Both the position numbers and the translations under genes were made by a program. The notes under the pieces are model-generated. The model was given only the letters and a program-made list of their open reading frames with translations. It was not told where the DNA came from and did no database searches. This document shows positions 4,486-19,783 of a DNA stretch of 59,264 nt, piece after piece (position 1 is the stretch's first letter; each line of letters begins with the position of its first letter). The DNA comes from a virus (Duplodnaviria; Caudoviricetes): the IMG/VR virus record IMGVR_UViG_3300036832_000931, positions 1-59,264 of that record, one strand, 5' to 3'.

Positions 4486-4722
4486 ATGGCAATCATCACA
4501 ACCGATTTTGTAGCGTACACAGCATCTAAAATGTTGGATAAGGCAAAGCGGAACTATCAACGCGCATTGACCAACCATAACAAGCAACAGTCAATCGGCG
4601 AAACTGATATGTCAGTCAAACAGACGAGACGTATGGCATTAGCAGTATCAGCATTGTCTCGAGCATCATTCCGCTTGCATGATTGCGAAAGGGTTATGTT
4701 GCGGTTGCTCAATCAGCGCTGA
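4486..4722 (+). CDS. Hypothetical protein
   Basis: 78 aa ORF with a TAAGGAG RBS. Confidence 0.6.
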   Translation: MAIITTDFVAYTASKMLDKAKRNYQRALTNHNKQQSIGETDMSVKQTRRMALAVSALSRASFRLHDCERVMLRLLNQR

Positions 4723-4728
4723 CCTGCA

Positions 4729-4784
4729 GAGTGGACCCGGGGCTCAACCCGGGTTTAATGCGCAGTCAGGTCACAAGCCCTGAC
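4729..4784 (+). repeat. Two-hairpin intergenic element, copy 2
   Basis: GAGTGG-ACCCGGG(GCTCAA)CCCGGGT-TTAA...GTCAGG(TCACAAGC)CCTGAC. Confidence 0.8.
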
Positions 4785-4825
4785 CAACGCAAAATTCAAT
4801 TTCCCGCTAAGTGAGGGAATCTGGA

Positions 4826-5554
4826 ATGAGACAAAAGGGTTTTATCAAGGGCGCGGGTATTCTCTATGAGAATAGCCAAGTTGTAGTTATTGCAACTGGG
4901 GCTAATGGGTCTCGTAAAAGCCGGAACGTTAAGACGGGTCACATGGCGCAAATCTGGATTCTAGTCAAAGCAGTAGACCCGGTCACTGCTGTTAAGACGG
5001 GGCTAGATAAAGCAGTTTGTTTCAATTGCCCCTATCGTGGCGATGAGGGGCTTGATCGGGCTTGCTACGTCACAACCTATGATCTTGCACGGGCTCCGGG
5101 TTCTATCTGGAAAGCCTACCGACGCAATCGCTACGAACACATCACAACCTCAGGTCAGATTGCCAAACTGTTTGGCGATGCTGCAGTCAGATTTGGGGCT
5201 TACGGTGAGCCCGTCTTAATTCCATTGCCAACCATCAAGGCGATAACTGAAGTGGCTAAAACTTGGACGGGTTATACGCACCAATGGAAGCGGGTCAAAT
5301 ATTTGGCTTATCGGCGTTATCTGATGGCTTCAACCTCAGAGACGGATTATCAGCAAGCCCAATCGTTGGGTTGGAGAACATTCTCAGTATCAGCAACAAC
5401 CCTGCAGGGTCAGATAGTTTGCCCTGCTAGTGCGGAACGGGGGCACAAGCTCAGTTGTGAAGAGTGCGGCTTGTGTGCCGGCACAACCCGGGTTGCTAGA
5501 AGCGTACAGATTGCCCCGCATGGGTCAGGGGCTAAATATGCTGCAGCTGCTTAA
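4826..5554 (+). CDS. Conserved Cys-rich phage protein (Gp88-like, possibly Fe-S binding)
   Basis: NVKTG...VCFNCPY...CYV...RFGAYGEP...WTGYTHQW...LMAS...GWRTF...CPAS...CEECGLC motif series. Confidence 0.6.
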   Translation: MRQKGFIKGAGILYENSQVVVIATGANGSRKSRNVKTGHMAQIWILVKAVDPVTAVKTGLDKAVCFNCPYRGDEGLDRACYVTTYDLARAPGSIWKAYRRNRYEHITTSGQIAKLFGDAAVRFGAYGEPVLIPLPTIKAITEVAKTWTGYTHQWKRVKYLAYRRYLMASTSETDYQQAQSLGWRTFSVSATTLQGQIVCPASAERGHKLSCEECGLCAGTTRVARSVQIAPHGSGAKYAAAA

Positions 5555-5735
5555 GCAGTTGCTCGAGACCCTGCAGGGTCCACTCTGCAGGGTGCTAAAG
5601 CCCCTCGCGATTTTTGGCGGGCCCGGGAAAAAAACATCGCCAGGGCTAAAAATGTCGCGAGGTTAAAAGCAAGATTTAAGCAAGCTGGCGGGACTTTTTT
5701 TTCTAAAGCAAGTTTTCTAATAAGGAGAGAGCAAG

Positions 5736-6167
5736 ATGTCAGTATCTATCAAACAGCAAGTGATCGAGTATCTCGAGCGCAACGGGTACAAGTTCGACCC
5801 GGGATATAAAGGGCACAAGTACCGTAAGCTGATCCATGATCGGTATGAACCGATCTACGTTGGCCACACGGGGGCATTTAGGAAGGGTTCTACCATCGCT
5901 GACAGCATCTCGATCACTGATAAGCTCAGAGCGCTGTTGAGCTTGCCGGCATACGGTGAGGCCGGGGCTTGCGAGACCTGTGGCAGCACCGGGTATCGGG
6001 TCAATGCTCGCGTTGCGCGTGCCGCCGGTATAGCGGGCAAGTTGGCTGGTAAGCAAGGTACTGGGAGCAAGTCAGAATGTACCCGCAAGATATATCGTGC
6101 CGGTTATATCCAGGCTTGCTCCATACCATACCATTTACTATATTGGTGTAGTTCGATTGATGATTGA
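5736..6167 (+). CDS. Hypothetical protein
   Basis: 143 aa ORF with a TAAGGAG RBS and the AGCAAG start-associated motif. Confidence 0.55.
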   Translation: MSVSIKQQVIEYLERNGYKFDPGYKGHKYRKLIHDRYEPIYVGHTGAFRKGSTIADSISITDKLRALLSLPAYGEAGACETCGSTGYRVNARVARAAGIAGKLAGKQGTGSKSECTRKIYRAGYIQACSIPYHLLYWCSSIDD

Positions 6168-6183
6168 TAAGGGAGATCAGCAA

Positions 6184-6462
6184 GTGAACAAGCAAATGAT
6201 CGCGAGGTTGTCTGAGGCTTTCGTTGCCGGGTTGCGGCAAGAACTGACGCCTGCTCAATGGGCGCTCATGGCGGAACGCAACCGCTCGGAACAAAGCAAG
6301 AATATCTGCCACAGTCACGATTTTACCGATGCAAATATGGTGATGTCTGCTGCTTTCGAGCAGGCCGGCATTCCGCTGTGGACCGCGGGCGGACATCTCA
6401 GTGAGCAATCGATGGAATTGTGGAATGCGGCGTGGGCCAAAGCGGCCGCGCAACTACGCTAG
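6184..6462 (+). CDS. Hypothetical phage protein
   Basis: GTG start after TAAGGGAGATCAGCAA; contains CHSHDFTDANMVM..AF. Confidence 0.6.
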   Translation: MNKQMIARLSEAFVAGLRQELTPAQWALMAERNRSEQSKNICHSHDFTDANMVMSAAFEQAGIPLWTAGGHLSEQSMELWNAAWAKAAAQLR

Positions 6463-6492
6463 CAAGTTTTTACGATAAGGGAGATCAGCAAG

Positions 6493-6651
6493 ATGACGAT
6501 CCAGATAACAGAATTCGCCACGCAAGTGGCGCTCAGATCCTATGGCGAGGTGCGCAAAGCCTATCGCCGATATAAAGCAGACTGCGATCGTCTCGATCGT
6601 ACCGATAGGCTTGTACAAGCCCACAGAGTTAGCCGACGCAATTGTCGATGA
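6493..6651 (+). CDS. Small hypothetical protein (52 aa)
   Basis: Hand-translated MTIQITEFATQ..., preceded by TAAGGGAGATCAGCAAG-ATG. Confidence 0.5.
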   Translation: MTIQITEFATQVALRSYGEVRKAYRRYKADCDRLDRTDRLVQAHRVSRRNCR

Positions 6652-6885
6652 TTATAAGCCCGCGACATAAGCAAGTTTGGCGCTTCAAGAGAGTAAAGCA
6701 AATGACAATATTTCAGACCAGCGACGGCTATAAGCTCTGGCAGCATACGAGCGGAGACGGGCAAGTGGTATGGCGTGACAAGCCCTCCGGGGATCCCGAT
6801 TGGGATCTTGAGTTTGGCGATGATAAGGGTCACCCGATTGACGACCTGGGTGAACCGCTCGAGGGCTCCTTTGTGAGTTAAAAGC

Positions 6886-7056
6886 ATGACGCGGTTAACG
6901 ACATTAATCGAGATAGCGCTCGGCATCCTGGTCGTTGTGCTGGGTATTCAGGCACCAATATGGATGAACCTCGTCAGACTAAACGGGCAAGTTGCCCAGA
7001 TGGGGGTTCAAGTGTCGCAAATAAACAGCAAGATTGACCAGTTGAATCGTCAATAA
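6886..7056 (+). CDS. Small membrane-anchored coiled-coil protein (56 aa)
   Basis: Hand-translated MTRLTTLIEIALGILVVVLGIQAPIW...VSQINSKIDQLNRQ. Confidence 0.45.
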   Translation: MTRLTTLIEIALGILVVVLGIQAPIWMNLVRLNGQVAQMGVQVSQINSKIDQLNRQ

Positions 7057-7095
7057 AGCGTGAAGAGCAAGTTTCCCATTAAGGAGGGAGGCAAG

Positions 7096-7257
7096 ATGTT
7101 CTACCTCAATATCAAGTCTATATCGCCACCGTTCTACCAGATGCGGTTGTATCGTACCTCGCGGCAACTGTATCAGGTGCAGTTCGAGAACGGTGCTGCA
7201 ATCACCGTCACTGATACCGGTCGCATCGTTGCGCTGGTATATGGGCAAAGCAAATGA
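7096..7257 (+). CDS. Small hypothetical protein
   Basis: ATG after TAAGGAGGGAGGCAAG; stop overlaps the DUF29 start (ATGA). Confidence 0.5.
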   Translation: MFYLNIKSISPPFYQMRLYRTSRQLYQVQFENGAAITVTDTGRIVALVYGQSK

Positions 7258-7712
7258 AGGACTATCACGCATGGTTGCTGGAACAGGCTGCGGCGCTGCG
7301 CCGCCGTGACATCGAAGCGCTCGACTGCGACGAGCTGGCTGAGGAGGTGGAGGGGATGGCAAGGACCGCGCGCCACCATATAAAAGTGGGACTAAGAACG
7401 ATCCTCGAACATCTAAGCAAGCTGGCGTACAGCAAGCCTACCCATCGCCTGTGGCGCGCAGCTATCAGCCGCTCCCGCGATACTATCAAGCTGCTGCTCG
7501 AAGAGTCACCAGGGCTCAGACAGTACCTCGATGAATATAGAGTCAAAGGCTATCGCCGCGCTCGTCGTCTGGCCGGTGAGTCCTTGGGCTGGGAACGCAA
7601 GCAATGGGAAGCCAACCTCCCAGCCGAGTGCCCGTGGACGCTCGAGCAGATCCTTGATGAGGATTTCTTCGCCGACGGTGACAATGACGGCGACTGGATC
7701 CCGATATTTTAG
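7254..7712 (+). CDS. DUF29 family protein
   Basis: DYHAWLLEQAAALR...LD..ELAEEVE...ILEHL.KL...LLEESPGLR...CPWTLEQILDEDF. Confidence 0.85.
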   Translation: MKDYHAWLLEQAAALRRRDIEALDCDELAEEVEGMARTARHHIKVGLRTILEHLSKLAYSKPTHRLWRAAISRSRDTIKLLLEESPGLRQYLDEYRVKGYRRARRLAGESLGWERKQWEANLPAECPWTLEQILDEDFFADGDNDGDWIPIF

Positions 7713-7731
7713 CCGATAAGGAGAACAGTAA

Positions 7732-7899
7732 TTGAGCGACGTCGCCACCAAAAACGATCTGCGCGAGCTCGAAGCGCGGCTCGAGAGCAGCCTCAAAAGC
7801 ACTATCATCAACACCATGATCGCGCTCACCGCCATTTATGGCGGAATTACCGCCGTCGCGATCACCGTATTGACGCTCGTATTCAAGAAAGTAATTTAA
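7732..7899 (+). CDS. Small DUF1640-like membrane protein (55 aa)
   Basis: TTG start after TAAGGAG; VATKNDLRELEARL followed by a hydrophobic helix. Confidence 0.55.
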   Translation: MSDVATKNDLRELEARLESSLKSTIINTMIALTAIYGGITAVAITVLTLVFKKVI

Positions 7900-7901
7900 G
7901 T

Positions 7902-8129
7902 TTGCAAACCCCAACCGATTTGGATTATTTACTACAACAAGTTACTGGCATGGATAAGGACGTATTTTCTAATAAGGGAGAATGCCCGTTGGACATGGAT
8001 TCTTTCAACGCTGAAACGACGGTCATACTGTCCAAGATCTTCCGCCACTACCTTCGGTGGACCATCGGGTCAATGGTCGCAATCGCCAGCATTGCCTTGG
8101 TTATAGCGAAGATATTATGGAACCACTAA
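7902..8129 (+). CDS. Small membrane protein (true start probably further downstream)
   Basis: C-terminal hydrophobic helix WTIGSMVAIASIALVIAKILW; internal TAAGGGAG RBS. Confidence 0.45.
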   Translation: MQTPTDLDYLLQQVTGMDKDVFSNKGECPLDMDSFNAETTVILSKIFRHYLRWTIGSMVAIASIALVIAKILWNH

Positions 8130-8326
8130 AAATGACCGCGGCTGAACACGTCTGGGTTGAGCAGCAGCTGGCCGAGACCCGCAAGTTTATTGCGGAGCAA
8201 AACAAGCTGAACGCCGAACGGCAAAAGTCTGAGCGGGTATGGTGGTGGGTGCCGTTTATTCTGGTCGCTGGGAATATCGTGCTGAGTGCTCTGATCGGTG
8301 CCCTCGTGGGGCACTTCGTCAAATAG
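8057..8326 (+). CDS. Small coiled-coil plus membrane protein (start uncertain)
   Basis: LAETRKFIAEQNKLNAERQK followed by WWWVPFILVAGNIVLSALIGALVG. Confidence 0.5.
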   Translation: MDHRVNGRNRQHCLGYSEDIMEPLKMTAAEHVWVEQQLAETRKFIAEQNKLNAERQKSERVWWWVPFILVAGNIVLSALIGALVGHFVK

Positions 8327-8394
8327 TTACGTCATGAAGAGAGTCAGCAGGTCTGATTCCTCATCGTCAGTGATTTTCAGGTAGGTCAGCATCG

Positions 8395-8541
8395 ATGCGG
8401 TCGGAGCTCTGGAGAGTGTTGTTAGCGTTTGTGCTCGGTGTAGCCGTGTTCTGCGGTGCGGTGTTCGTCGTCTCGCACTGGATACTGCCAGCACCGGCTC
8501 ATCAGGAGATCTACGTTCATATCTATCACGATAAATCGTGA
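8395..8541 (+). CDS. Small membrane protein (48 aa)
   Basis: Hand-translated MRSELWRVLLAFVLGVAVFCGAVFVVSHWIL... Confidence 0.4.
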   Translation: MRSELWRVLLAFVLGVAVFCGAVFVVSHWILPAPAHQEIYVHIYHDKS

Positions 8542-8559
8542 GGAGAGAAATACTATAAA

Positions 8560-9207
8560 ATGTTATTTGGATTTACTAAAAATGAACTCTGTCTGATCTG
8601 CGATTGCCTGCACGGTACGCTCAGCAATCCGTCACAGGATCGTGATGGTGGTCGCCGCTTTATCCTCGATCAGGTGACGGAATTTATCCGCACCGAGAAG
8701 GCAGATGAGAAGTGGGATGTCGCCAGGACCACCATACTCGAGAAGATCGAGACGCTCGACGGCTGGCACTCGCAGCTAATTCTGGGATGCGTCAAGCGTT
8801 TCTGGGAGCTCACCGGTCAGTCCAAGGACTATGATGCTGAGGAGCTGCTGCGTAAGGCAGGCTTCGATACTCCGACCGCCTACCTGATGAACTCGGCCGT
8901 CATTCCGTCGGGTACCTCGGGCACCTACCGTTACACTTGGTATGCGGAGACGGATGGTACGCTGGCGAGATTTATCAAGGACAAACATCCAGTCTCGCGG
9001 ATTGGCTATGCCGATGCCTGCGACATGGTCCAGGACATGAGCGGCGGTTATCGGCCGCGGCTCTCCCGTTCTGCTGCGCTCATCGAACCCGGGGACTGCG
9101 CGATGGTGATCAGACTGAAGTACCGCCTCGCTGATACCGGTCCCAAGAGAGTGCGGATGAAGAATAAAGAAGACTATGAGATCGGGCTGCTCGAGCGGCT
9201 GGATTAG
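8560..9207 (+). CDS. Two-domain protein with C-terminal DUF1874/YddF (AcrIII-1 ring-nuclease-like) domain
   Basis: C-terminal YLMNSAVI..G.Y...SRIGY...SR....PGDCAMVIRL..R...YEIGLLERLD follows the DUF1874 pattern (LNS, SxIGH, NR, GD.A, LLxRLD), with Tyr in place of the His. Confidence 0.55.
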   Translation: MLFGFTKNELCLICDCLHGTLSNPSQDRDGGRRFILDQVTEFIRTEKADEKWDVARTTILEKIETLDGWHSQLILGCVKRFWELTGQSKDYDAEELLRKAGFDTPTAYLMNSAVIPSGTSGTYRYTWYAETDGTLARFIKDKHPVSRIGYADACDMVQDMSGGYRPRLSRSAALIEPGDCAMVIRLKYRLADTGPKRVRMKNKEDYEIGLLERLD

Positions 9208-9209
9208 TT

Positions 9210-9353
9210 ATGTCGCTTAGTGAGTACCTCGATGCGCGATTACGTCGAGCCGAGATCGAAATCATTATTGCCACCATCATGATTGTCGGGCTGGGCGATG
9301 CTGCGTTGTTCTGGGGGCTCTCGATACTTCTGCAACACAAGTTTCACTGCTAA
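9210..9353 (+). CDS. Small membrane protein (47 aa)
   Basis: Hand-translated MSLSEYLDARLRRAEIEIIIATIMIVGLGDAALFWGLSILL... Confidence 0.4.
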   Translation: MSLSEYLDARLRRAEIEIIIATIMIVGLGDAALFWGLSILLQHKFHC

Positions 9354-9417
9354 TGCGCAGGAACCTTGTCATCTATTATCAAATGTTTAGCGTCTGCACA
9401 AAGGCGGTTAGAAGCTG

Positions 9418-9726
9418 ATGAGTGACAACCATCAAGTGGAATTTGTTACGCGCGAGGAATTGCGCGGTGAACTGAGAGAGCTGCGTGGGGAATTTCACAC
9501 GATGCGCAGCGAGGTGCGTGCCGACCTCAAGGACATGCGTGGCGAGTTGAGCAAAATGCATGATGGGCTGAACACCATGCACGGTGAATTGCGGACGCAG
9601 ACGCACTGGATGATGGGCATTCTCGTGACCATTGCCGTGGGCCTCGCCGGGATCGCGTATGGCACCTTACGACTGAGCGTAGGTCTGAAACCACCAGCAA
9701 CAACAAGCTCTAGTACCTTACGATGA
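9418..9726 (+). CDS. DUF1640-like heptad coiled-coil membrane protein
   Basis: FVTREELRGELRELRGE heptads, then WMMGILVTIAVGLAGIAYG helix. Confidence 0.6.
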   Translation: MSDNHQVEFVTREELRGELRELRGEFHTMRSEVRADLKDMRGELSKMHDGLNTMHGELRTQTHWMMGILVTIAVGLAGIAYGTLRLSVGLKPPATTSSSTLR

Positions 9727-9986
9727 AATACTTACGCGCAAGCTCTGACGGCATGTGGATGTTGTTCTTCCCCGTCCTATCGCTCTTCTTCGTGATCTTC
9801 ATCCTCGTTATTACCGATGATGACGGCGTCTCGCGCAAACAGGAGGTTAAAGCGTGCGACATTGCCGTGCAGCAGCTGATGACCACTCATGATCTCGTCG
9901 AACTCCAGCGCGATGAATGGCTGATACATCACTTGCGTTGTTGGGTCACTCGGCGCGCAGTGCCGATACTGGTTCCTGCGAAATGA
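9723..9986 (+). CDS. Small membrane protein
   Basis: N-terminal hydrophobic helix; ATGA overlap with the upstream gene; stop inside repeat copy 9971-9996. Confidence 0.5.
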   Translation: MKYLRASSDGMWMLFFPVLSLFFVIFILVITDDDGVSRKQEVKACDIAVQQLMTTHDLVELQRDEWLIHHLRCWVTRRAVPILVPAK

Positions 9987-10025
9987 GCAGTGAAACGAAT
10001 AAGCGGTTAATAAGGGAATACTCTA

Positions 10026-11444
10026 ATGAGAAAAAGGAAAAGAGACTGGCCGATGAGGGTGATCAAGATTCGTGCGTATCCGAGAGTGATCCCGGATAGC
10101 GTCTGGGCGATCGCGAAGGACCAGAGAAAGCTGTGGAATGATTTGACCAGTATGTGGAAGGCGACCGCTGATCTGGCGGCCAACCTGCCTGAGCAGAAAA
10201 AAGAAATGTGGAAACAGTTTGAGGACTGGGCGGCAGCGGCCGTTAAACTGTCCGGCCTCGACTGGGTTAATGGACCGGATATTTTAGATAGATTGCGTGC
10301 TACCACGCGCTCGCGCAAACAGGCTCCACGCTTTCATGGTGCGCTGCAAAGGGTGTCGATCGGGCACAGATATACCGGCGGCGGGAAGGCTCTGGAGGAG
10401 GTGATTGATCCAGGCGTTCAGGTCAGACGATTCGCCTTGGTCTCATCGAAGGACTGGATCGCCTCGCAGCGCTCACAGATCGGTCAGCATTCGCCCAAGC
10501 GCAAGCATTGGCGCGGCCGCTTCCAGGTCGGTGAAGAGACGATTGAGTACTCGTTGGCGCTTCATCGCGAGCTGCCTGAGCGCGCGATTTTGAAGCGTGT
10601 GGCATGGCTGGGTGAGCGCAGTGGCCCGACATGGTTTTGGTACTTGGCGCTCACGGTGGAAGAAGAGCCGGTACAAGGTTCCTGCGTGACGACGAGCAGT
10701 GAAACTACAAGCTCTGCCGCTATCGACCTGGGCTGGCGGTTATTTGCCGATGGGACCAAACAGGACCGGCTGCGGGTCGGCATGCTGGCTGATTCCGAGG
10801 CGCGCATGATCGAGCTGCGGTTGCCGCTGCGCCTGCGGCCTAACCGCGTTCAGGAACAGCGCGGGCTGGATACCATCGCACAGTGGCAGGCCGAGGCTTC
10901 CAAGCTCGACAAGAGCTCTGACGAGTACCGCATGCTCACCCGCGAGATGAGACAGTTACGCTTTCGCTTAATCCAAAGGCGCAGATGGTACTACCTCAAT
11001 CTCGCCAACTGGCTCTGTCAGCGATACAAGCGGATTGCGCTCGAGGATATGAGCATCAAGGATCTGCATCGTAAGCCGGATGATCCCGCCTTGCAGAATA
11101 GCGCGCAGTATCGCAATTACGCGGCGATTGGGGAATTCCGTGCCCTGCTCCTGCGCACCGCCACCAAATACGGCTGCGAGGTCATTCCCGTCGATTCGAT
11201 TGACTCGACCAGGACGTGCTGGGAATGCGGAGCCAAGGCCGAGGCGAGTGGGCACCTGACGCTTAAATGCGAGAACGGGCACGAATGGGATCAGGATAAA
11301 AACGCCGCTCGTAATCTGTTCTCGCAACTGGAGGGGACTTTCGGGCAGACACACAGTTTGCGAAAAATAACGACTACTGGTAAGTGGAAACGATTGGAGT
11401 TGCCGGAGTCTATTGGAGCGGTTGCAGTTGAGGTTCCTGCGTGA
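10026..11444 (+). CDS. cas12: Compact type V CRISPR effector (TnpB/Cas12 superfamily, Cas12m/V-U1-like)
   Basis: RuvC-I AAIDLGWR, RuvC-II IALEDM, Zn finger CWEC...CENGH, RuvC-III WDQDKNAARNL. LHRELP..A.LK...W.L.LTV and LRVG motifs resemble Cas12m. Directly abuts a CRISPR array. Confidence 0.85.
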   Translation: MRKRKRDWPMRVIKIRAYPRVIPDSVWAIAKDQRKLWNDLTSMWKATADLAANLPEQKKEMWKQFEDWAAAAVKLSGLDWVNGPDILDRLRATTRSRKQAPRFHGALQRVSIGHRYTGGGKALEEVIDPGVQVRRFALVSSKDWIASQRSQIGQHSPKRKHWRGRFQVGEETIEYSLALHRELPERAILKRVAWLGERSGPTWFWYLALTVEEEPVQGSCVTTSSETTSSAAIDLGWRLFADGTKQDRLRVGMLADSEARMIELRLPLRLRPNRVQEQRGLDTIAQWQAEASKLDKSSDEYRMLTREMRQLRFRLIQRRRWYYLNLANWLCQRYKRIALEDMSIKDLHRKPDDPALQNSAQYRNYAAIGEFRALLLRTATKYGCEVIPVDSIDSTRTCWECGAKAEASGHLTLKCENGHEWDQDKNAARNLFSQLEGTFGQTHSLRKITTTGKWKRLELPESIGAVAVEVPA

Positions 11445-12003
11445 TGAGCAGTGAAACCGATAAGCAGAGCATCGCAGGCAACCGGTTCTCGCGGTTGCAG
11501 TGGAGGTTCCTGCGTGACGAGCAGTGAAACTTGGGTACGGCGACTTCGATGAAGTACAAATCAAAGGTTCCTGCGTTACCAGCAGTGAAACAGGCCATCA
11601 GGAGTTCCTCGATTTTCTCGCAGCCCTGAGTTGCAGTAGAGGTTCCTGCGTAATGAGCAGTGAAACTACTAATCCTGCTCAGTGCGGCCTGCGAATGAGC
11701 ATTGAGGTTCCCGCGTACGGGCGGTGAAACAATGAACAAACAGTTTCGATCAAGATTGTCATCACAGTTGGTGGTTCCTGCGTAATGAGCAGTGAAACAG
11801 CTGGAGATCACGCAGCTTGAGGTTCGTGCGTAAGGGCGCTGAAACTAGAAGCACAAGATGGTTCGCGCGTAAGGGCGCTGAAACTCATACACGGTCGAAT
11901 CGGTTCCCGCGTACTGGCGGTGAAACAGAGAGCCGTTTCAGGGTTCCCGCGTGTGGGCGGTGAAACAGGAGAAATGAGGTTCCTGCGGATACAGCAGTGA
12001 AAC
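11421..12003 (+). CRISPR. CRISPR array, 11 repeats; full repeat GTTGCAGTNGAGGTTCCTGCGTRAYGAGCAGTGAAAC (37 nt), shortening distally
   Basis: Full repeats at 11421-11457, 11494-11530 and 11630-11666; core-only or degenerate copies at 11566, 11706, 11773, 11821, 11860, 11902, 11942 and 11978. First spacers are 35-39 nt. Confidence 0.9.
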
Positions 12004-12853
12004 TCCTAGACAGAAGCCGGTTCCTGTATCTGCCAATCTCCGCAGTCGTCTTGGTTGGAGTCCAGCAGCACGCCACTCTGCTTTTTACCTTCGCGCAGAT
12101 GCTCCCGGATACGGTCGAACATCAGCTCCAGCTCGCGGTCACGGTCGCCGCGCTTAAACGCCTTACTCTCCAGGTCGATCGTTATAACTAGCTCCACGCT
12201 ACTGCACCTCAAGTTTTCTTGCCGTTGTACTCCCAAGTCTGCCGGCCGAGTTTGCCGCGATGCTGATGGCAGAGACCCTGGGTCTTGCATTTGTCGCAGG
12301 CCAGCACCGACAGCATCACTTCCCGCCCCTCCTGTAAATCCATCAGCGCCGCCGCCACGGTGCCCGGAGGCGGCTCATCCCCGTAATGCCCCACCAGCTC
12401 CAGCAGCCCCTTCAGTGCACGGTTGCTGCACCTCACCGCAATAATCCCAGCCAGCCCGCCGCCAAGCCCGTCATAAACGCCGCCATCTCGAGAGCCGTCA
12501 CTCGCCACCCTTGAGCAGAAGCGCCATCACCCTCACCGCATCGCGCGGGTCCAGATCGAGTGCCATCAAACGGTCGGATAGCCAATCGCGTAAAGCTGGT
12601 TCCAGCCACTGCGCGACCCGCTGCACTTCTTCTTCGCTCATCCGATCTTCTAGATGCAGATCTTTCATGGTTCACCACCCCACCTCATTTTGTAGAAGTG
12701 AACTATAGTGGTTGAGTGATCTTTATTGAGCGAGTGAAATTGTCACCGCAGAGCTCAATTATTTGGTGAATTTTGACGTGAGCTGTGGACTAATCATGCG
12801 AACTTAGCGTGGTAGGTTCGTAAGTTCGCATCTTTTATCCCCAGAAGTGAAAC

Positions 12854-13288
12854 ATGAAAACGTACGAAACCGATTACTTCGCGTGGGCCAACCACCAAGT
12901 CGCGCTGCTGCGCAGCACCCAGCCCGAGTGGCTCGACTGGAAGAATCTGGCTGAGGAGGTGGAGGACTTGGGGCGCAGCGTGCGGTTTAGCGTGGAAAGT
13001 CACCTCGAGAACGTGCTGGTGCATCTGCTCAAGGCGCGCTACCAGCCCGCCCGGAGCAGCCGCAGCTGGGAGACCTCGGTGCTCAACGCCCGACTGCGCA
13101 TCGAGCGGCTGTTGCGCGAATCGCCTAGTTTGAAGGCGAGGCTGCCGGAGGCGCTAATGGAAGCCTACCGGCTGGCGCGAGGCGAGGCTGGTAGCCAAAT
13201 GGGCATGGACCGCCGACAGTGGGAGGCGACTCTCCCGCCAACTTGCCCGTGGAGGCTGGCGCAGGTGTTGGGGGATGAGCCGCTCTGA
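12854..13288 (+). CDS. DUF29 family protein (second copy)
   Basis: YETDYFAWANHQVALLR...LDWKNLAEEVEDLGRS...LVHLLK...SW..S....R......SPSLK...CPW.L.QVL. Confidence 0.9.
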   Translation: MKTYETDYFAWANHQVALLRSTQPEWLDWKNLAEEVEDLGRSVRFSVESHLENVLVHLLKARYQPARSSRSWETSVLNARLRIERLLRESPSLKARLPEALMEAYRLARGEAGSQMGMDRRQWEATLPPTCPWRLAQVLGDEPL

Positions 13289-13300
13289 GCAGTGAAACGA

Positions 13301-13609
13301 CTACGCCGACCTCTGCCAAATACGACGAGCCTCCGGACTCATCACGATCCGCGTGGCTTCGCTCCTCGTTATTCCCAGATCCATCAGTAAGTCGATGGAC
13401 ATGGTCGCTATCGCCGAGTGCGCCAGTGCCCGCCGTTCCTCGATGGGCAGCTGGTTACAACGCGCGCATATCCCACCCGCGTCCACTTCCTCAACATTCA
13501 TTCCGAAGCGCTGTTTGAACAAGTCTGCGGCTTCTGCGGTGAACCGCTGTGGCGTGACATCCTTGCTGCTACCACACAGAAGACATTTGATTGATGCGCC
13601 GAGCTCCAC
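13301..13609 (-). CDS. Hypothetical Cys-motif protein
   Basis: CLLC...CARC; GAGGAGG RBS. Confidence 0.5.
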   Translation of the reverse strand: MELGASIKCLLCGSSKDVTPQRFTAEAADLFKQRFGMNVEEVDAGGICARCNQLPIEERRALAHSAIATMSIDLLMDLGITRSEATRIVMSPEARRIWQRSA

Positions 13610-13745
13610 CAGTTTTCCTCCTCTTTTTTCGTCTGCAAATTTCGCTCAGGTATTAGCAATTTAAATAGGTGAAATCTTTCTCTTACATAGCTGCGATTCG
13701 ACGATTCTATAGCGTCTTATAGCGACACGACCTTTATTAGTTAAA

Positions 13746-15302
13746 CTAATGGCTTTCTTCCCCAAAAATACCCCCCTGATCGTCGTGGCTGGCGAGGATG
13801 TAACCAGTCGCTCTACCCTTCCCGTGGCGGTTGACCAGATGCTCTTTCACAGCCTGCCTGAGTCCCGCGAGGATCCAGTCTGCGCCCTTCCCAGTATGGT
13901 TGATGAGCTGAGCCTTGGTCGAGCCTCCCCCGAGCGCCTGTAATGCTTCGATGACTGAAGGCATTGCTACCCGTCCCCTGTGCTCACTGAACAAGCCACC
14001 CAGCGTTATCAGCCGTGTCTTCTCATCGAAGAGAACAAGCTCCTCCTTTAATACGCCAGTATCGCCATAACCGCCTTTACCAGTGACAAAAGCATTTACG
14101 CCGCTCGACTTGCGTCGGACCACCATTCGCATGCGATGCTGCGCCGTCCAGGCCGTATGCCCCGCAAACGCTTCCTCTGGATCACGCGGGTCGAGTGCTT
14201 TGGCCTCACTCTTCGGCGCGTGCCCCGTGACCAGTCCGCTGAAGTTGCGTTGACGTACGCACTCGAGCAGCGGATTCTGCTCGTTCATCGTAATCCGGTT
14301 GGTATCGCCAGAGTTATTGGGTGGCATCCCAAAAAAGTCGAAGAGAGTATCGAGGATAAAGGTCTTGCAGCCCAGCTTGTTCATCCAGTAATCGAACCAC
14401 TCCACCGCCTCCTCGGTGAAGCGGAAATGTGCTTTGCTCGACTCAACGATGTAGATAACTTCTTTGAGTTCCCAAAACCCGATATTCTCGCTCCACGCCT
14501 CGAACTCCTTGGCGGATACCACGACCAGCGTCTTGGACTGGCGGCACTTCCGCCCCAGCACCTCCGCTCCGAGCGCCCAGGCGCGAGCGAAGTTCATCGC
14601 CATCGTGGATTTGCCGCTGCCTATCAGGCCGGTCAGCACCGCTGAGCAGCCGTCTCTGATCAGTCCTTCCACCGAGTAGTCGCGACTGTCCGCCCGCATG
14701 GCCTCGTACGCCGCGTAAGCGTCGATTGGAGCGCGTTGTTCGAAGGCGGCTAGCTTCGGGTCCACCTTCGCCGGCAGCTGAGTCTTTTTGACCGGGACGA
14801 TCAGGCGGGAGATCCCCTCCAGTTCACCTCGTACATGCTCTCCGTCCAGCCCCTCCGGCACTGCGTAGCCGGGAACCTGCGTCACGAGCATCTCAAGGGA
14901 CTGCGTGAGTTGTTTGAAGAGCTCATCGCCCTCGAGCTTCCGCAGAGTCTGGTCCTGGACCATCATGCTCTCAGCGACCTGATAGACCCGCGCATTCCAG
15001 CGCAGCAGATTGGCTTGGAACTCATCCTCCTGCTCATCCGCTCCCGGCTCCCTGAGTACAACCTCCTGACGCGGCGGCGGTGGTGGCAGCGCTGGCGGGT
15101 CTTCCAGCAGCCGTGCGAGCGCAGCCGCTACAGCAGACGGCCGGAAACAACTTGGACAGTTAAACTTCAGCTCATCGCCATTGATGATGACGTAAGCATT
15201 CTTGGCTTCACATAACGGACAGGTGAACTCGAGACGGTCTGGCCGTCCGTTGCGATGCCCATCGGGAAGACGTGTTAGTAATTGATCGACGTTAGCCATC
15301 AA
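13746..15302 (-). CDS. Replicative helicase-like AAA_25/RepA-type ATPase with N-terminal Zn-binding domain
   Basis: CPLC...CPSC N-terminus; Walker A GLIGSGKST; Walker B FILDT; GHAPK; C-terminal wHTH-like segment. Confidence 0.75.
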   Translation of the reverse strand: MMANVDQLLTRLPDGHRNGRPDRLEFTCPLCEAKNAYVIINGDELKFNCPSCFRPSAVAAALARLLEDPPALPPPPPRQEVVLREPGADEQEDEFQANLLRWNARVYQVAESMMVQDQTLRKLEGDELFKQLTQSLEMLVTQVPGYAVPEGLDGEHVRGELEGISRLIVPVKKTQLPAKVDPKLAAFEQRAPIDAYAAYEAMRADSRDYSVEGLIRDGCSAVLTGLIGSGKSTMAMNFARAWALGAEVLGRKCRQSKTLVVVSAKEFEAWSENIGFWELKEVIYIVESSKAHFRFTEEAVEWFDYWMNKLGCKTFILDTLFDFFGMPPNNSGDTNRITMNEQNPLLECVRQRNFSGLVTGHAPKSEAKALDPRDPEEAFAGHTAWTAQHRMRMVVRRKSSGVNAFVTGKGGYGDTGVLKEELVLFDEKTRLITLGGLFSEHRGRVAMPSVIEALQALGGGSTKAQLINHTGKGADWILAGLRQAVKEHLVNRHGKGRATGYILASHDDQGGIFGEESH

Positions 15303-15721
15303 CCCCCCCTCCGGTTCTGTCTATCTACTCAGGTTTTACCTTGGTGCCAAATGATCACCCGTAAAAAACGGGTGCGCGGATTTTACTACACACAAACGAT
15401 CACACAAATCTCCTTCGTCATTTGATCGTCTATCTAAATGCCTAGATTTATTGAATAATAGAGAAGAGGGCCGATAATGACCCTCTTCTGGACATGCTAA
15501 CAATCTGTTACATAAGTCTACTATGTAGTAGTAGACCGTTTGCGGCGGGTAACTTCTGCTATCAACAAGTGGACAGCCGGTTAATCCTGACTTAGCACTA
15601 CTTGACTTGCCATCCATCGACCACGCCCTCTACCGCCACGGGCAAAATTTCGGGCAAACCACCACACCCACTTGTGTCACCTATCCCGATTCGGCAGAAG
15701 GTCTTCACTGCTCACACTCAG

Positions 15722-15913
15722 TCAGCTCAGCCCGCCCGGTTTGACCCGACGCTCATCGATGAACCGCTCGAGCGCGGCGGGATCATAGCGCACGCGCTTG
15801 CCGAGCTTTATATACTCCGGCCCTTTTTTTTCGAGCCTCCATTTTTGAAGACACTGAACGGTCACGCGGAGGATCCCTGCCACTTCGCGCTCAGACATCA
15901 AGTCGGTCGTCAT
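15722..15913 (-). CDS. Excisionase/AlpA-like HTH protein
   Basis: MTTDLMSEREVAGILRVTVQCLQKWR...GPEYIKLGKRVRY; GGGAGGGG RBS; adjacent to the integrase. Confidence 0.85.
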   Translation of the reverse strand: MTTDLMSEREVAGILRVTVQCLQKWRLEKKGPEYIKLGKRVRYDPAALERFIDERRVKPGGLS

Positions 15914-17099
15914 TAACTCGCCCCTCCCCAGCGTCTGGTATAGTTTCATCCACCGGTTCCTGCGTGGAAGCAGTGAAACGTTCTGGCTCATGCTCATCAC
16001 GCGCAGCGCTGTAGATGTATCGAGCGTAGTACTTGAACACGGTCTCAAGCCGATCGCCCATCAGCTCCGCGACCTGACCAGGGGTTAGCCCTTGCTCGAA
16101 ACAGTCCACGGCGAACGAATGCCTCATGACGTTCGGAGCTCGATACTTCAGCCCCGTCGCCTTGAACATCGGCCGCCAGTTGCGGTTGGTCCAGTTCTGC
16201 AGATTGAGACGTGCCCCTCGACGACCACGGAAGATCAGGCCCGTTTCATCGATCGGGATGTCTAACCGGCTGAGCACGGCCATGAGCCGTGCCGCGTTTC
16301 TCGGGGGCAGCTTTACAGTACGATGTGCGCGTTTCGTCTTGGTTCCTCGTATCGTAGCCCACTTCCCAGTGTCAGGAAGATCTTCCCGCAGAAGACCCAG
16401 CACCTCCGACGGTCGAGGCCCCAGGGCAAAGCCCAGTTCCACGATCGACCAGTCTTGGACGGTCTTGGCTACCGCCGACAGCTTCAACTGATCGGCCGGT
16501 GGAATGGGATCGATCTCCTCAGTCGCGCCTGAGGGCGGGTTCTCGATAAACTTCATCGGGTTTTTGCTGATCACCTCATCCGCTTCAAGCATCAAGAAGA
16601 TCTTCCGCAGCCGCTGAATGAACTGAGCTATCAGCCGATCCGGCTTGCCGGGGCGGTCTGACCGCCGCTCTACCCCATCGATCGCAGCCTGGATGTCCTT
16701 ACGCATAATCTCGCGCACGTCCATCTCCCCCAGCGCGGTGCCGTCGAGAAAGCGGCTGAACAAATACTCAACCCCCTTCGTCGTCTTTGCGCTTCTATAC
16801 TTCTGGGTATTCAGCCACTGCCGAGCTACGACGCGAAGAACCATAACGGGAGCAGCCGCCGCTTCCGCCTCTGCCACAGCCTTCAGCGCTTTGGCCGCCA
16901 TCGAATTGGGGAAGAATTCTTCAAGTGTGAACGTACCCTCCTTGATCGCATGGGTGACCCGCCGCTCAAGCGACGCGTACTGGCGACGATTCTCTTTGGT
17001 TGCACGCACGCCCTTGCCGACGCTGGGCCGATAAACCTTGCCCTGCCAGCGGAACTCCAGACACAGCCGGTTACGATTGCCTTTGATAAGTGATGCCAT
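15891..17099 (-). CDS. int: Tyrosine recombinase/integrase with N-terminal arm-binding domain
   Basis: GPRPSEVLGL (catalytic R), TKT, MRHSFA, MGD, YARY (catalytic Y). Confidence 0.9.
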   Translation of the reverse strand: MASLIKGNRNRLCLEFRWQGKVYRPSVGKGVRATKENRRQYASLERRVTHAIKEGTFTLEEFFPNSMAAKALKAVAEAEAAAAPVMVLRVVARQWLNTQKYRSAKTTKGVEYLFSRFLDGTALGEMDVREIMRKDIQAAIDGVERRSDRPGKPDRLIAQFIQRLRKIFLMLEADEVISKNPMKFIENPPSGATEEIDPIPPADQLKLSAVAKTVQDWSIVELGFALGPRPSEVLGLLREDLPDTGKWATIRGTKTKRAHRTVKLPPRNAARLMAVLSRLDIPIDETGLIFRGRRGARLNLQNWTNRNWRPMFKATGLKYRAPNVMRHSFAVDCFEQGLTPGQVAELMGDRLETVFKYYARYIYSAARDEHEPERFTASTQEPVDETIPDAGEGRVNDDRLDV

Positions 17100-19765: not shown

Positions 19766-19783
19766 GAGAAAAGAGGGGGTGCT

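What the first reader, a model, noticed from the sequence alone, without database searches (positions are those of the whole stretch)
10026..11444. Unusually small Cas12m-like effector with an apparently intact D-E-D RuvC and no adaptation genes
Seen: 472 aa with D (AIDLGW), E (LEDM) and D (DQDKN), a Zn finger, and no cas1/cas2, tnpA or evident tracrRNA in the window. Known: characterised Cas12m proteins are about 600 aa, process their own crRNA and silence by DNA binding without cutting. Inference: a compact phage branch between TnpB and Cas12m, potentially useful as a tool.
Basis: partly seen in the sequence, partly recalled or inferred. Interest (0 to 1): 0.75.

Follow-up and report, generated by a model that had tools for sequence, protein, structure and literature searches.

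The report
Miniature phage Cas12m without REC2
A soil phage encodes an intact but unusually small (472 aa) relative of the DNA-binding CRISPR protein Cas12m that lacks one DNA-gripping domain, and about 70 copies of its guide-RNA hairpin lie between the phage's own genes, so it may control the phage's own messages as well as rival DNA.

Summary
Window 10026-11444(+) is an intact 472-aa ORF with D234/E340/D424, a CCCH zinc ribbon, and no cas1, cas2, cas4, Y1 tnpA or resolvase in the 59-kb phage record.

It belongs to the Cas12m (V-M/V-U1) family, not to IS200/605 TnpB:
- PADLOC Cas12u1, 3e-33.
- Family profile against PDB: Cas12m 23vw 1e-54, ISDra2 TnpB 1e-9.
- The AF2 model (pLDDT 86) best matches Cas12m2 and GoCas12m.

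Two absences explain the small size. About 70 aa are missing where Cas12m carries its REC2 coiled coil, so the REC lobe is TnpB-like. A further 31-63 aa are missing between RuvC-I and RuvC-II.

An intact D-E-D triad and missing adaptation genes are already known for Cas12m, and tested D-E-D Cas12m proteins did not cut DNA.

Three things are less ordinary:
- The first 26-nt crRNA handle overlaps the gene's stop codon, here and in relatives.
- Most close relatives with a detected handle carry one handle, not an array.
- This phage holds about 70 covarying, mostly sense-oriented handles, 53 of 70 outside long ORFs.

The scan has noted such dispersal before in other Cas12m phages. I found no paper describing it.

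Verdict: a new variant of a known kind. It is probably an RNA-guided binder that also engages the phage's own transcripts.

The parts
10026..11444 (+). cas12m-family gene, 472 aa (WED-REC1-WED-RuvC-TNB-RuvC, no REC2)
   Evidence: ORF. Pfam PF07282 42.4 bits against a cut-off of 26.3. PADLOC Cas12u1 3e-33. PDB profile hit Cas12m 23vw 1.1e-54. AF2 pLDDT 86.2. Foldseek top 4 hits are Cas12m2 and GoCas12m.
10095..10310 (+). REC1, three helices (residues 24-95). The turn at residues 53-55 (about 10182-10190) is where relatives and Cas12m 23vw carry a 70-84-aa insertion that I read as REC2; it is absent here.
   Evidence: Model helices H24-53, H55-76 and H82-95. Insertion of 70 aa in P0008 and 84 aa in P0017, against 0-6 aa in the other 26 rows. 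A roughly 71-aa insertion in 23vw at the same profile position. REC2 is 'inserted into REC1' in Cas12m2: PMC10442227, passages seen.
10725..10727 (+). RuvC-I Asp234 (GAC)
   Evidence: 28/28 D.
10917..10922 (+). Junction S298|D299, where 26 of the 27 other family rows carry 31-63 extra residues (median 45). The missing segment lies between RuvC-I and the long helix before RuvC-II.
   Evidence: The D234-D424 spacing is 190 here and 194 in P0022, against 221-253 in the other A1 rows.
11043..11045 (+). RuvC-II Glu340 (GAG)
   Evidence: 25/28 E.
11217..11282 (+). TNB zinc ribbon C398-x2-C401 ... C415-x3-H419
11295..11297 (+). RuvC-III Asp424 (GAT)
   Evidence: 28/28 D.
9959..9996 (+). Repeat copy (handle 9971-9996) ending 29 nt before the cas12m ATG. 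Its loop holds the stop codon of the upstream ORF 9723-9986.
   Evidence: (36.5 bits).
10677..10705 (+). In-frame handle copy inside the gene (encodes GSCVTTSSET, residues 218-227). It lies in a low-confidence linker just before RuvC-I, and its loop is lengthened by 3 nt.
   Evidence: (32.9 bits). pLDDT below 50 at residues 219-224.
11420..11457 (+). First full 38-nt repeat. Its 5' part encodes the conserved C-terminus AVAVEVPA, and the stop codon TGA (11442-11444) lies in the hairpin loop.
11420..12003 (+). Degenerate array of 11 handles. Start-to-start spacing is 73, 61, 75, 65, 67, 48, 39, 42, 40 and 36 nt. Only units 1, 2 and 4 keep the 5' 12 nt of the repeat.
9341..9365 (-). Antisense-oriented handle copy in a + strand gene region. 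Its + strand transcript would be complementary to handles.
   Evidence: (39.8 bits).
1271..59245 (.). About 70 dispersed copies of the 25-29-nt handle GGTTC-stem-loop-stem-TGAAAC across the record. Clusters lie at 2958-3446(+) and 58917-59245(-). Single copies or pairs sit at most gene junctions from 36.5 to 59 kb(-). None was found between 21907 and 33337.
   Evidence: 60 strict pattern hits against 0.00 expected. 72 covariance-model hits at E<=1. Map. 53 of 70 lie outside ORFs of >=100 aa, which cover 84% of the window.

Best explanation
The ORF is an intact, probably functional, miniature member of the Cas12m (type V-M, formerly V-U1) family, carried by a temperate soil phage. It keeps WED, a three-helix REC1, a RuvC fold with D234/E340/D424 and a CCCH TNB zinc ribbon. 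It lacks the REC2 coiled coil of characterised Cas12m and a second 31-63-aa helical insertion present in nearly all of its own relatives.

Inferred mechanism, by analogy with characterised Cas12m and phage Cas12r:
1. The protein binds a 26-nt hairpin handle (outer stem with a G.A pair, bulged U, covarying inner stem, 3' ...GAAAC).
2. It excises the handle plus about 17-18 nt of downstream RNA without a tracrRNA.
3. It uses that RNA to bind PAM-flanked complementary dsDNA without cutting it, which blocks transcription or replication.
4. With no REC2, it probably holds only a short (about 12-bp, TnpB-like) heteroduplex. That would fit the 11-22-nt gaps in the distal array and the mini-arrays.

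Guides can come from two sources. One is the degenerate array that begins inside the gene's own stop codon. The other, because one handle should suffice, is the roughly 60 further handles embedded in sense orientation in phage transcripts. The effector therefore most likely also binds, and possibly cuts, the phage's own mRNAs at gene junctions.

Shown here: family membership, domain losses, conserved residues, handle structure and distribution. Inferred: RNA processing, DNA binding without cleavage, short heteroduplex, action on own mRNAs.
For: Family:
- PADLOC Cas12u1 3e-33 is the best of 13 models.
- The single sequence against PDB gives Cas12m 23vw 2.1e-20 and ISDra2 TnpB 3e-3.
- The A1 profile gives 23vw 1.1e-54 over profile positions 28-472, UnCas12m4a 2.2e-30, Cas12m2 8hhl 1.8e-12 and TnpB 8bf8 9.8e-10.
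- Foldseek ranks 1-4 are Cas12m2 8hhm (6.8e-19, TMq 0.63), 8hhl, GoCas12m 8pm4 and 8hio. Cas12f and TnpB come next.

Intactness.

Domain losses. Passages of PMC10442227 say REC2 lets Cas12m2 hold 17 bp where TnpB holds 12 bp.

Handle:
- Relatives L048 and L049 (7 repeats each) and L070 (4) carry regular arrays of the same GGTTC...TGAAAC hairpin starting inside the gene's 3' end.
- 96.0% of cells are paired against 88.4% in shuffles, and 48 cells are changed on both sides against 10.1. In both cases 0 of 500 shuffles reached the observed value.
- Cas12m2 crRNA has a C(-1) and a G:A pair recognised by His269/Arg270 (PMC10442227). Here the handle ends ...AAC with a possible G.A pair, and an LHR motif (H180 in 23/28 rows) lies upstream of RuvC-I.

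Processing precedent:
- Purified PmCas12m cuts after nt 2-3 of the repeat and at guide position 17-18 (bioRxiv 2026.03.26.714355, section 5).
- In phage Cas12r a single repeat suffices, giving 26 nt + 18 nt (bioRxiv 2026.04.20.719267, sections 25-26).

Dispersal:
-.
- Handle-to-start spacing is 14-20 nt in 9 of 17 hand-picked handles that directly precede ORFs of >=86 aa.
Against: - Nothing here measures RNA or DNA binding, processing or cleavage.
- D234 and D424 are invariant and E340 nearly so. That argues the RuvC site is used for something. Phage Cas12r needs its RuvC for interference, so this protein may cut.
- The hairpin alone is not more stable than shuffled sequence (-7 kcal/mol, z about 0).
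- The dispersed copies lack the 5' 12 nt of the full repeat, so 5' processing may not occur at them.
- No protospacer was found for any spacer, so no PAM and no target are known.
- Relatives' loci of >=10 kb show no dispersal beyond the gene-adjacent handles, so dispersal is not a family trait of this clade.
- The record is only about 63% complete.
- Calling the missing N-terminal insertion 'REC2' rests on its position in alignments and on a paper's description, not on a residue-level structural superposition.
Confidence: 0.6

Rival explanations
1. It is an active RNA-guided DNA nuclease (a cutting mini-Cas12 like phage Cas12r, Cas12f or TnpB). The phage uses it against competing mobile elements or host DNA. 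The dispersed handles are by-products or extra guide sources.
For: - The D-E-D triad is kept in 28/28, 25/28 and 28/28 family rows.
- PMC10442227 (Discussion) suggests that the D-E-D clades 3 and 4 'may facilitate' DNA hydrolysis.
- Phage LalCas12r interference depends on its RuvC D238.
- The MvCas12m preprint also keeps D-E-D and suggests nuclease activity.
Against: - PMC11013384 reports no dsDNA cleavage, and no collateral DNA or RNA cleavage, for its D-E-D orthologues.
- Restoring D-E-D in Cas12m2 did not restore cutting (PMC10442227, 'data not shown').
- In Cas12m2 the acidic site binds the non-target strand through Mg2+, so conservation does not prove catalysis.
Confidence: 0.22
2. It is a transposon-type TnpB with an omegaRNA (IS200/605 or IS607 relic), not a CRISPR effector. 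The 'repeat' is the 3' end of an omegaRNA that has been duplicated.
For: - NCBIfam guided_TnpB 2e-18 is the best NCBIfam hit.
- The handle overlaps the gene's 3' end as omegaRNAs do.
- 16 of the 20 relatives' loci with a detectable handle have just one.
- PMC10691335 proposes arrays arising by serial duplication of omegaRNA segments.
Against: - The NCBIfam TnpB scores are far below their cut-offs (66.8 against 100, 42.6 against 350, 34.6 against 425).
- No Y1 or serine TnpA is present in the record.
- The conserved RNA element is 26-38 nt. From recall, omegaRNA scaffolds are longer.
- Cas12m profiles and structures score far better than TnpB.
- 6 of 7 more distant viral relatives examined have regular arrays next to the gene.
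Confidence: 0.06
3. The gene is a decaying remnant, shortened by an internal deletion and interrupted by a repeat insertion. The hairpins are an independent selfish or regulatory repeat (REP/MITE-like), or an RNA anti-CRISPR decoy aimed at a host CRISPR system with a similar repeat.
For: - The 31-63-aa segment is missing.
- A handle is inserted in the coding sequence.
- The distal array is degenerate.
- Phage solitary repeat units acting as RNA anti-CRISPRs are known (PMC10651486, abstract seen in the listing).
- Two preprints note likeness of phage type V repeats to host type I-E repeats.
Against: - The frame is open end to end with all catalytic and zinc residues, and the model is confident.
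- An independent relative, P0022 (458 aa), lacks the same segment.
- The inserted handle is in frame, in a disordered linker, and has a 3-nt loop expansion that keeps the frame.
- The outer stem GGTTC/TGAAAC, invariant in all 71 aligned copies, is the same as in the arrays of relatives that encode this protein family. The hairpins are therefore this protein's cognate handle.
Confidence: 0.08

Closest known systems
Cas12m (type V-M, formerly V-U1): PDB 23vw 'CRISPR-associated DNA-binding protein Cas12m' (577 aa) and UnCas12m4a (23vu/23vv)
   Same: - Best sequence relatives with solved structures (A1 profile 1.1e-54 and 2.2e-30).
- Same D/E/D motifs aligned (AAIDLGWR; LE; WDQD-NAA-NL), the same LHR-E/P-IPE motif and the same zinc ribbon.
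   Different: - 23vw has a roughly 71-aa insertion between the first two REC1 helices and a region of about 95 aa, against 43 aa here, between RuvC-I and RuvC-II.
- Identity is low, only locally alignable with the single sequence.
- I found no paper for these entries (3 papers, none on them).
MmCas12m2 (8hhl/8hhm/8hio) and GoCas12m (8pm4)
   Same: - Best structural matches of the model.
- crRNA-only, with a handle ending in C(-1) closed by a G:A pair.
- No adaptation genes. DNA binding without cutting is the expected mode.
   Different: - About 600 aa with a REC2 coiled coil, an H-D-D triad and a 17-bp heteroduplex (PMC10442227).
- The protein here is 472 aa with no REC2 and a D-E-D triad.
- Sequence likeness is detectable only with the family profile (1.8e-12).
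MvCas12m of myxophage MV-1 (bioRxiv 10.64898/2026.09.14.751636, passages)
   Same: Phage-encoded Cas12m with D-E-D, an adjacent array, no cas1/2/4, no tracrRNA and no protospacers found.
   Different: - 610 aa, with one regular array of eight spacers.
- The passages I read make no mention of dispersed handles or of a handle overlapping the gene.
- Its claim to be the 'first Cas12m in a bacteriophage' sits beside 45 IMG/VR loci with relatives. Of the 7 I examined, 6 have arrays.
LalCas12r of Thermus Lalka phages (bioRxiv 10.64898/2026.04.20.719267, sections 25-26 and passages)
   Same: - Small phage type V effector next to short degenerate repeats.
- crRNA of a 26-nt repeat part plus 18 nt.
- A single repeat suffices.
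- RuvC is not needed for maturation, and there are no adaptation genes.
   Different: - 564 aa, a RuvC-dependent cutter with an A-rich PAM, described as a separate TnpB branch.
- tblastn of my protein against 50,697 phage records gave only one weak TnpB-like hit. I do not know whether Lalka genomes are in that collection, so relatedness was not tested.
IS200/605 TnpB with omegaRNA (ISDra2, 8bf8/8h1j)
   Same: - Core WED-REC-RuvC-TNB fold and a REC lobe without REC2.
- The guide-RNA scaffold overlaps the gene's 3' end.
- A single guide module in most close relatives.
   Different: - No TnpA or transposon ends.
- The scaffold is a 26-38-nt hairpin.
- Much weaker profile and structure scores.
- Arrays are present.
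Standalone CRISPR repeat-like elements (SRUs, mini-arrays, cr-like RNAs; bioRxiv 10.1101/2023.03.03.530964) and phage RNA anti-CRISPRs (PMC10651486)
   Same: Solitary repeats and one-spacer mini-arrays lie outside the main array. One sits just upstream of the effector gene, which is the layout proposed for autoregulation.
   Different: Those are one or a few copies per locus or virus. Here there are about 70 copies in 59 kb, mostly at gene junctions of the phage that itself encodes the effector.

Membership tests
Cas12m / type V-M (V-U1) | Profile and sequence affinity to V-U1/Cas12m above that to other type V subtypes and TnpB | tested here: met
   - PADLOC Cas12u1 3e-33 is best of 13. One 'Cas12f'-labelled model of the same length comes close at 1.1e-31.
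- PDB profile: Cas12m 1.1e-54 and 2.2e-30, against TnpB-like 1.7e-14 and TnpB 9.8e-10.
Cas12m / type V-M (V-U1) | Fold: WED, REC1, RuvC split by a TNB zinc ribbon, closest to solved Cas12m | tested here: met
   Foldseek ranks 1-4 are Cas12m2 and GoCas12m, 6.8e-19 to 6.6e-14. Model pLDDT 86.2.
Cas12m / type V-M (V-U1) | Coiled-coil REC2 inserted into REC1, gripping the PAM-distal heteroduplex (hallmark stressed for Cas12m2 in PMC10442227) | tested here: not met
   One residue lies between the REC1 helices here, where P0008 and P0017 have 70 and 84 aa and 23vw about 71 aa. The model shows only three REC helices. The equivalence to REC2 is inferred from position.
Cas12m / type V-M (V-U1) | Adjacent CRISPR array, crRNA-only (no tracrRNA) | tested here: inconclusive
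   An array of 11 handles abuts the gene, but only 3 units are full repeats and the gaps shrink to 11-22 nt. The RNA requirement is not testable here. 16 of 20 relatives' loci with a handle have a single handle.
Cas12m / type V-M (V-U1) | No adaptation module | tested here: met
   Cas1, Cas2 and Cas4 are absent from the record. The record is about 63% complete.
Cas12m / type V-M (V-U1) | PAM-dependent dsDNA binding without cleavage; self-processing of pre-crRNA | not testable with these tools
   Literature precedent only (PMC11013384; bioRxiv 2026.03.26.714355).
IS200/605 or IS607 TnpB | Score above the curated family cut-off | tested here: not met
   NCBIfam guided_TnpB 66.8 against 100, IS607_TnpB 42.6 against 350, IS200_TnpB 34.6 against 425. 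Pfam OrfB_IS605 21.9 against 30.5.
IS200/605 or IS607 TnpB | Association with TnpA (Y1 or serine recombinase) and transposon ends | tested here: not met
   No PF01797 or PF00239 match in the record. No flanking inverted repeats beyond two 14-15-nt chance-size pairs.
IS200/605 or IS607 TnpB | Long omegaRNA scaffold overlapping the gene's 3' end, followed by one guide | tested here: inconclusive
   The overlap is present (handle core starts 12 nt before the end of the stop codon), but the conserved element is only 26-38 nt and is repeated.
Cas12f (V-F) | Profile match, tracrRNA dependence and dimeric action | tested here: inconclusive
   PADLOC Cas12f models score 1.1e-31 to 1e-3. PDB Cas12f hits are much weaker than Cas12m (4e-5 or worse). 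No anti-repeat lies next to the array. Dimerisation is not settled.
Cas12r (Lalka phages) | Sequence relatedness to LalCas12r | not tested
   No Cas12r sequence was available to me. One search found no phage relative, but the collection's content is unknown to me.

The most novel reading that the evidence does not exclude
This phage has turned a CRISPR effector into a genome-wide controller of its own gene expression. A REC2-less mini-Cas12m reads about 70 handle hairpins written into the phage's own transcripts. Many of them sit 14-20 nt before start codons, so that the ribosome-binding site lies in the 'guide' segment. The protein would thereby cut, shield or silence each cistron. Loss of REC2 and shrinkage of the spacers to 11-22 nt would mark the shift from immunity to self-regulation. 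The solo-handle relatives, with a conserved 14 nt after the handle, would be fixed-guide regulators of the same kind.
Probability: 0.35. Interest if true: 0.85.

Novelty: new variant of a known kind. Interest (0 to 1): 0.66.

Why it matters
1. A 472-aa, crRNA-only, probably monomeric DNA binder with a 26-nt handle would be about 100 aa smaller than the Cas12m scaffolds now engineered for CRISPRi, base editing and epigenome editing (577-614 aa solved; xCas12m is 581 aa).

2. A natural Cas12m without REC2 gives a direct test of the published idea that REC2 was the step that turned a TnpB-like core into an adaptive-immunity effector.

3. Three features offer a concrete picture of how arrays may grow from an omegaRNA-like module: a handle overlapping the stop codon, solo-handle relatives, and arrays in others.

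4. Seventy cognate handles inside one phage's transcripts is the densest case I know of. The pattern recurs in this scan (AI notes on at least five other phages). I found it in none of the papers my searches returned. It points to a possible non-defence use of CRISPR effectors by viruses.

Tried and rejected
- Spacer targets. The 18 nt after each of 65 handles was searched in the window at <=3 mismatches. Only chance-size hits or hits caused by neighbouring hairpins appeared. The array 11440-12060 against 50,697 phage and 72,556 plasmid records at E<=1 gave no match. So there is no PAM and no target. I did not scan IMG/VR with single spacers.

- Same handle elsewhere. The exact pattern in IMG/VR gave 0 stretches. 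A looser pattern gave 95 stretches, of which 80 were listed, each with one match, which is chance level. The window's own record may be left out of these scans.

- Expression. One DNA run (a soil metagenome, possibly the source) and no RNA holder were listed.

- Homodimer. Complex prediction with two copies gave no verdict (score 0.00, controls not run). This is no evidence either way.

- Promoters and terminators around 9200-12800. There were 0 promoter-like sites and 1 terminator-like site, which is not above the shuffles.

- Hairpin energy is not different from shuffles. The support for structure is covariation.

- Local targets for the conserved 16 nt after the handle in 12 solo-handle relatives: none at <=2 mismatches.

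- Naming relatives. 10 long representatives carried no informative names.

- Named references for the tree were not available to me. The tree is the quick IQ-TREE fallback of 65 hand-chosen rows of >=380 aa. It has SH-aLRT support only, a midpoint root, one TnpB-like row on a 3.5-long branch, and 26 of 62 inner branches open.

- Whole records of L047, L048, L057, L058 and L085 could not be searched for dispersal.

- Cas-delta (PMC12721324) and TranC/Cas12p (PDB hits 1e-12 and 4e-7) were considered and rejected as the closest kin.

- Supplements are closed. Table S1 of PMC11013384 (134 Cas12m variants, including IMG/VR searches) and the clade tables of Wu et al. 2022 (not in the library) may already hold REC2-less proteins of about 500 aa. 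My statement that this form is undescribed rests only and on the passages I read.
Full report
WHAT IS THERE

The window is a 59,264-bp IMG/VR virus record, linear, estimated 63% complete. It comes from soil: one DNA run holds it and no RNA holder is listed.

It is a temperate tailed phage:
- integrase 15891-17099(-), RecT and a DNA methyltransferase;
- portal 42065-44296(-), large terminase 56628-58274(-) and tail fibres;
- major head protein 35426-36571(-).

Cultured relatives are distant, with at most 41% capsid identity.

The finding's ORF is exactly as described: 10026..11444(+), 472 aa. It has D234 (AIDLGW), E340 (ALEDM), D424 (DQDKN) and a C398/C401/C415/H419 zinc ribbon.

FAMILY

- Pfam sees only the Cas12f1-like TNB domain (42.4 bits, above its cut-off) and a sub-threshold OrfB_IS605.
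- The NCBIfam TnpB models hit but fall far below their cut-offs.
- PADLOC's best model is Cas12u1, the old name of Cas12m, at 3e-33.
- Against all PDB sequences the single protein finds Cas12m 23vw (2.1e-20) and UnCas12m4a (7.7e-11) ahead of TnpB-like proteins.
- A 28-row family profile (A1) gives 23vw 1.1e-54 over nearly its whole length, UnCas12m4a 2.2e-30, Fanzor2/TnpB-like L79 1.7e-14, LaTranC 1.1e-12, Cas12m2 1.8e-12 and ISDra2 TnpB 9.8e-10.
- The AlphaFold2 model (pLDDT 86.2, pTM 0.75) matches Cas12m2 (8hhm 6.8e-19, 8hhl), GoCas12m (8pm4) and the Cas12m2 binary complex (8hio) best. Cas12f and TnpB follow.

The best hit, 8hhm, is the state in which REC2 is disordered. That fits what follows.

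The family is large but unnamed:
- 43 word-sharing relatives;
- 1410 representatives at E<=1e-3 and 102 at E<=1e-30;
- 10 representatives looked up carried no informative names.

WHY IT IS SMALL

The closest relatives (P0002-P0017, 42-51% identity by BLASTP) are 494-626 aa. Two differences account for the size.

1. Between the first two REC1 helices (residues 53-55) the window protein and 25 other A1 rows have 0-6 residues. P0008 and P0017 have 70 and 84, and Cas12m 23vw has about 71 at the same profile position. Omura et al. (PMC10442227, passages) describe the Cas12m2 REC2 coiled coil as an insertion into a three-helix REC1. They say it lets Cas12m2 hold a 17-bp heteroduplex where TnpB, which lacks it, holds 12 bp. 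My model has just three REC helices. I therefore read this clade as REC2-less, by inference from position.

2. At S298|D299, 26 of the 27 other rows have 31-63 residues (median 45) that the window protein lacks. Only P0022 (458 aa, 35% identical) shares the gap. The RuvC-I to RuvC-III spacing is 190 and 194 residues in these two, against 221-253 in the other A1 rows.

A quick tree of 65 hand-picked rows (limits are given under Tried and rejected) puts the protein in a fully supported clade. The clade holds 15 short proteins and the sister pair P0008/P0017. The long state is scattered and needs about 10 changes. The compact form therefore looks like recurrent loss or gain inside a Cas12m-like radiation, not a basal link to TnpB.

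WHAT IS ALREADY KNOWN

- D-E-D is a recognised Cas12m state (clades 3 and 4, PMC10442227 Discussion).
- PMC11013384 chose four D-E-D systems among eight. It reports binding without dsDNA cleavage for D-E-D, H-D-D and N-D-D orthologues, and RuvC-independent pre-crRNA processing (passages).
- V-M loci lack other cas genes as a rule (PMC10691335).
- A phage Cas12m (610 aa, D-E-D, array, no adaptation genes) was reported in September 2026 as the first in a phage.
- IMG/VR nevertheless holds 45 loci with relatives of my protein. Of the 7 I examined, 6 have regular arrays directly after the gene.

So the D-E-D triad, the missing cas1/cas2 and the phage setting do not make this finding unusual.

THE GUIDE RNA AND ITS PLACEMENT

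Downstream of the gene is a repeat family whose full unit is 38 nt. Its 3' 26 nt form a hairpin: outer stem G-C, G.A, U-A, U-A, C-G; a bulged U; then a 4-bp inner stem.

The inner stem covaries. On 71 copies:
- pair 9:24 is U-A 33, C-G 30 and U-G 7;
- pair 8:25 is C-G 52, U-A 5 and G-C 3;
- 96.0% of cells are paired against 88.4% in shuffles, and 48 cells are doubly changed against 10.1, with 0 of 500 shuffles as high.

Relatives L048 and L049 (32% identity) and L070 have regular arrays of the same GGTTC...TGAAAC hairpin with spacers of about 36 nt. The hairpin is therefore this protein family's crRNA handle.

The first repeat begins inside the gene. Its 5' part encodes the family-conserved C-terminus AVAVEVPA, and the stop codon lies in the loop.

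I examined 33 relatives' loci, several of which are near-copies from different samples:
- 20 have a model hit;
- in 12 of those the first handle starts before the stop (9-15 nt before its end in 11 loci, 66 nt in L046);
- in the other 8 it starts 56-73 nt after the stop;
- 13 have no hit;
- only 4 of the 20 have two or more handles.

That gene-handle-guide module resembles TnpB-omegaRNA in layout, though not in scaffold size.

THE WIDER SETTING IN THIS PHAGE

The handle is not confined to the array.
- A strict pattern finds 60 copies against 0.00 expected in 100 shuffles.
- A covariance model finds 72 at E<=1, of which 70 are below 1e-3.
- 53 of those 70 lie outside or at the edges of ORFs of >=100 aa, which cover 84% of the window.

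By an automatic nearest-ORF rule, 54 of 70 are co-oriented. Of the 16 scored 'opposite':
- 10 belong to the 2958-3358 cluster in a divergent intergenic region upstream of + strand genes;
- 3 fall where a shadow ORF displaced the (-) ORF 41354-42064;
- 3 are clearly antisense copies (9341, 15955, 33337).

Many handles start at or within a few bases of a stop codon.

Among 17 hand-picked handles that directly precede ORFs of >=86 aa, 9 end 14-20 nt before the start codon. I dropped the other 21 of the 38 rows because their 'ORF' is a short frame inside a handle cluster or inside a longer gene.

The cas gene itself carries three handles: one ending 29 nt before its ATG, one in frame in a disordered linker (residues 218-227) and one at its stop codon.

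No relative's locus of >=10 kb shows such dispersal, and no other IMG/VR contig carries the motif more than once.

Earlier AI notes of this scan describe dispersed Cas12m handles in at least five other phages. I did not test those. My calls agree with them where they overlap.

HOW IT MOST LIKELY WORKS

Two precedents are relevant:
- Purified PmCas12m cuts pre-crRNA after nt 2-3 of the repeat and at guide position 17-18.
- In phage Cas12r a single repeat is enough to make a 26+18-nt crRNA.

By these analogies, any handle-bearing phage transcript should load this protein. The RNP would then bind PAM-flanked DNA without cutting it, as tested D-E-D Cas12m do. Without REC2 it would probably hold only about 12 bp. 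That fits the 11-22-nt gaps of the distal array and mini-arrays.

Where a handle sits 14-20 nt before a start codon, binding or ruler-type cutting would cover or sever the ribosome-binding site. A role in processing or repressing the phage's own messages is therefore plausible.

None of this is measured. The invariant D234 and D424 leave a nuclease role open. No spacer target or PAM was found.

VERDICT

The protein is a new, REC2-less miniature variant of Cas12m rather than a TnpB or a new kind of effector. The unusual parts are its domain loss, the handle-in-stop-codon module and the roughly 70 cognate handles in its own phage.

Noticed in passing
window 4383-4440(+) and 4725-4782(+): Two Twister-P5 self-cleaving ribozymes (Rfam RF02684, 46.7 and 56.8 bits against a gathering score of 37.6). 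They lie on the same rightward strand, about 1 kb downstream of the 12-handle cluster at 2958-3446. That transcript may be heavily processed.
   Followed up: no
window 9341-9365(-), 15955-15979(+), 33337-33361(+): Three handle copies lie antisense to the surrounding genes. Their sense-strand transcripts would be about 25 nt complementary to handles (an anti-repeat-like RNA). The first lies 0.66 kb upstream of the cas12m-like gene.
   Followed up: partly
window 9723-9986(+): The 87-aa ORF upstream of the cas gene ends ...AVPILVPAK*. This end is encoded by a repeat copy in the same frame as the Cas12m C-terminus AVAVEVPA*, with its stop codon in the hairpin loop. Repeats seem to supply or capture gene ends.
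   Followed up: no
L050:2999, L053:6587, L057:6587, L060:2664, L061:5420, L079 (after the handle): Solo-handle relatives (about 30-33% identical proteins) share a conserved stretch of about 14 nt right after the handle (CTsTAyTTyTGGCG), then diverge. The L062-L069/L081 group shares GTCTGTTTCC. This could be a fixed guide or a scaffold extension. No local target was found.
   Followed up: partly
L046:2086-2233: The closest relative with DNA in hand (49% identity) has two 74-nt repeat+spacer units that are 91% identical, spacer included. The spacer was duplicated rather than acquired. Its ORF reads through the first handle.
   Followed up: no
window, handle ends compared with start codons (for example 1271, 38188, 40580, 51736, 58917): 9 of 17 hand-picked handles upstream of long ORFs end 14-20 nt before the start codon. 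The ribosome-binding site therefore lies within the roughly 17-18 nt that Cas12m and Cas12r keep as guide.
   Followed up: partly
L001, L002, L008, L012, L015, L026 (IMG/VR): 6 of 7 distant viral relatives examined carry regular CRISPR arrays (3 to about 35 repeats) directly after the Cas12m-like gene. Phage-borne Cas12m-like systems are therefore common in IMG/VR, despite a 2026 preprint's 'first in a bacteriophage'.
   Followed up: partly
L002: 898, 2771, 3127, 8007, 8561, 12600: Six copies of a 40-nt promoter-like motif (CTTGAC...GTGCAC...GTGCACATATTG) lie in a 185-kb viral contig, each followed by a conserved RBS-like box. This is probably a phage promoter family and is unrelated to the handle.
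   Followed up: no
window handle consensus: In outline the handle (GTTCC-GC-rich stem-loop-stem-...AAAC) resembles type I-E repeats. This is recalled, not tested. Two preprints note the same for their phage type V repeats. Capture of the repeat from, or mimicry of, a host type I-E array is possible.
   Followed up: no
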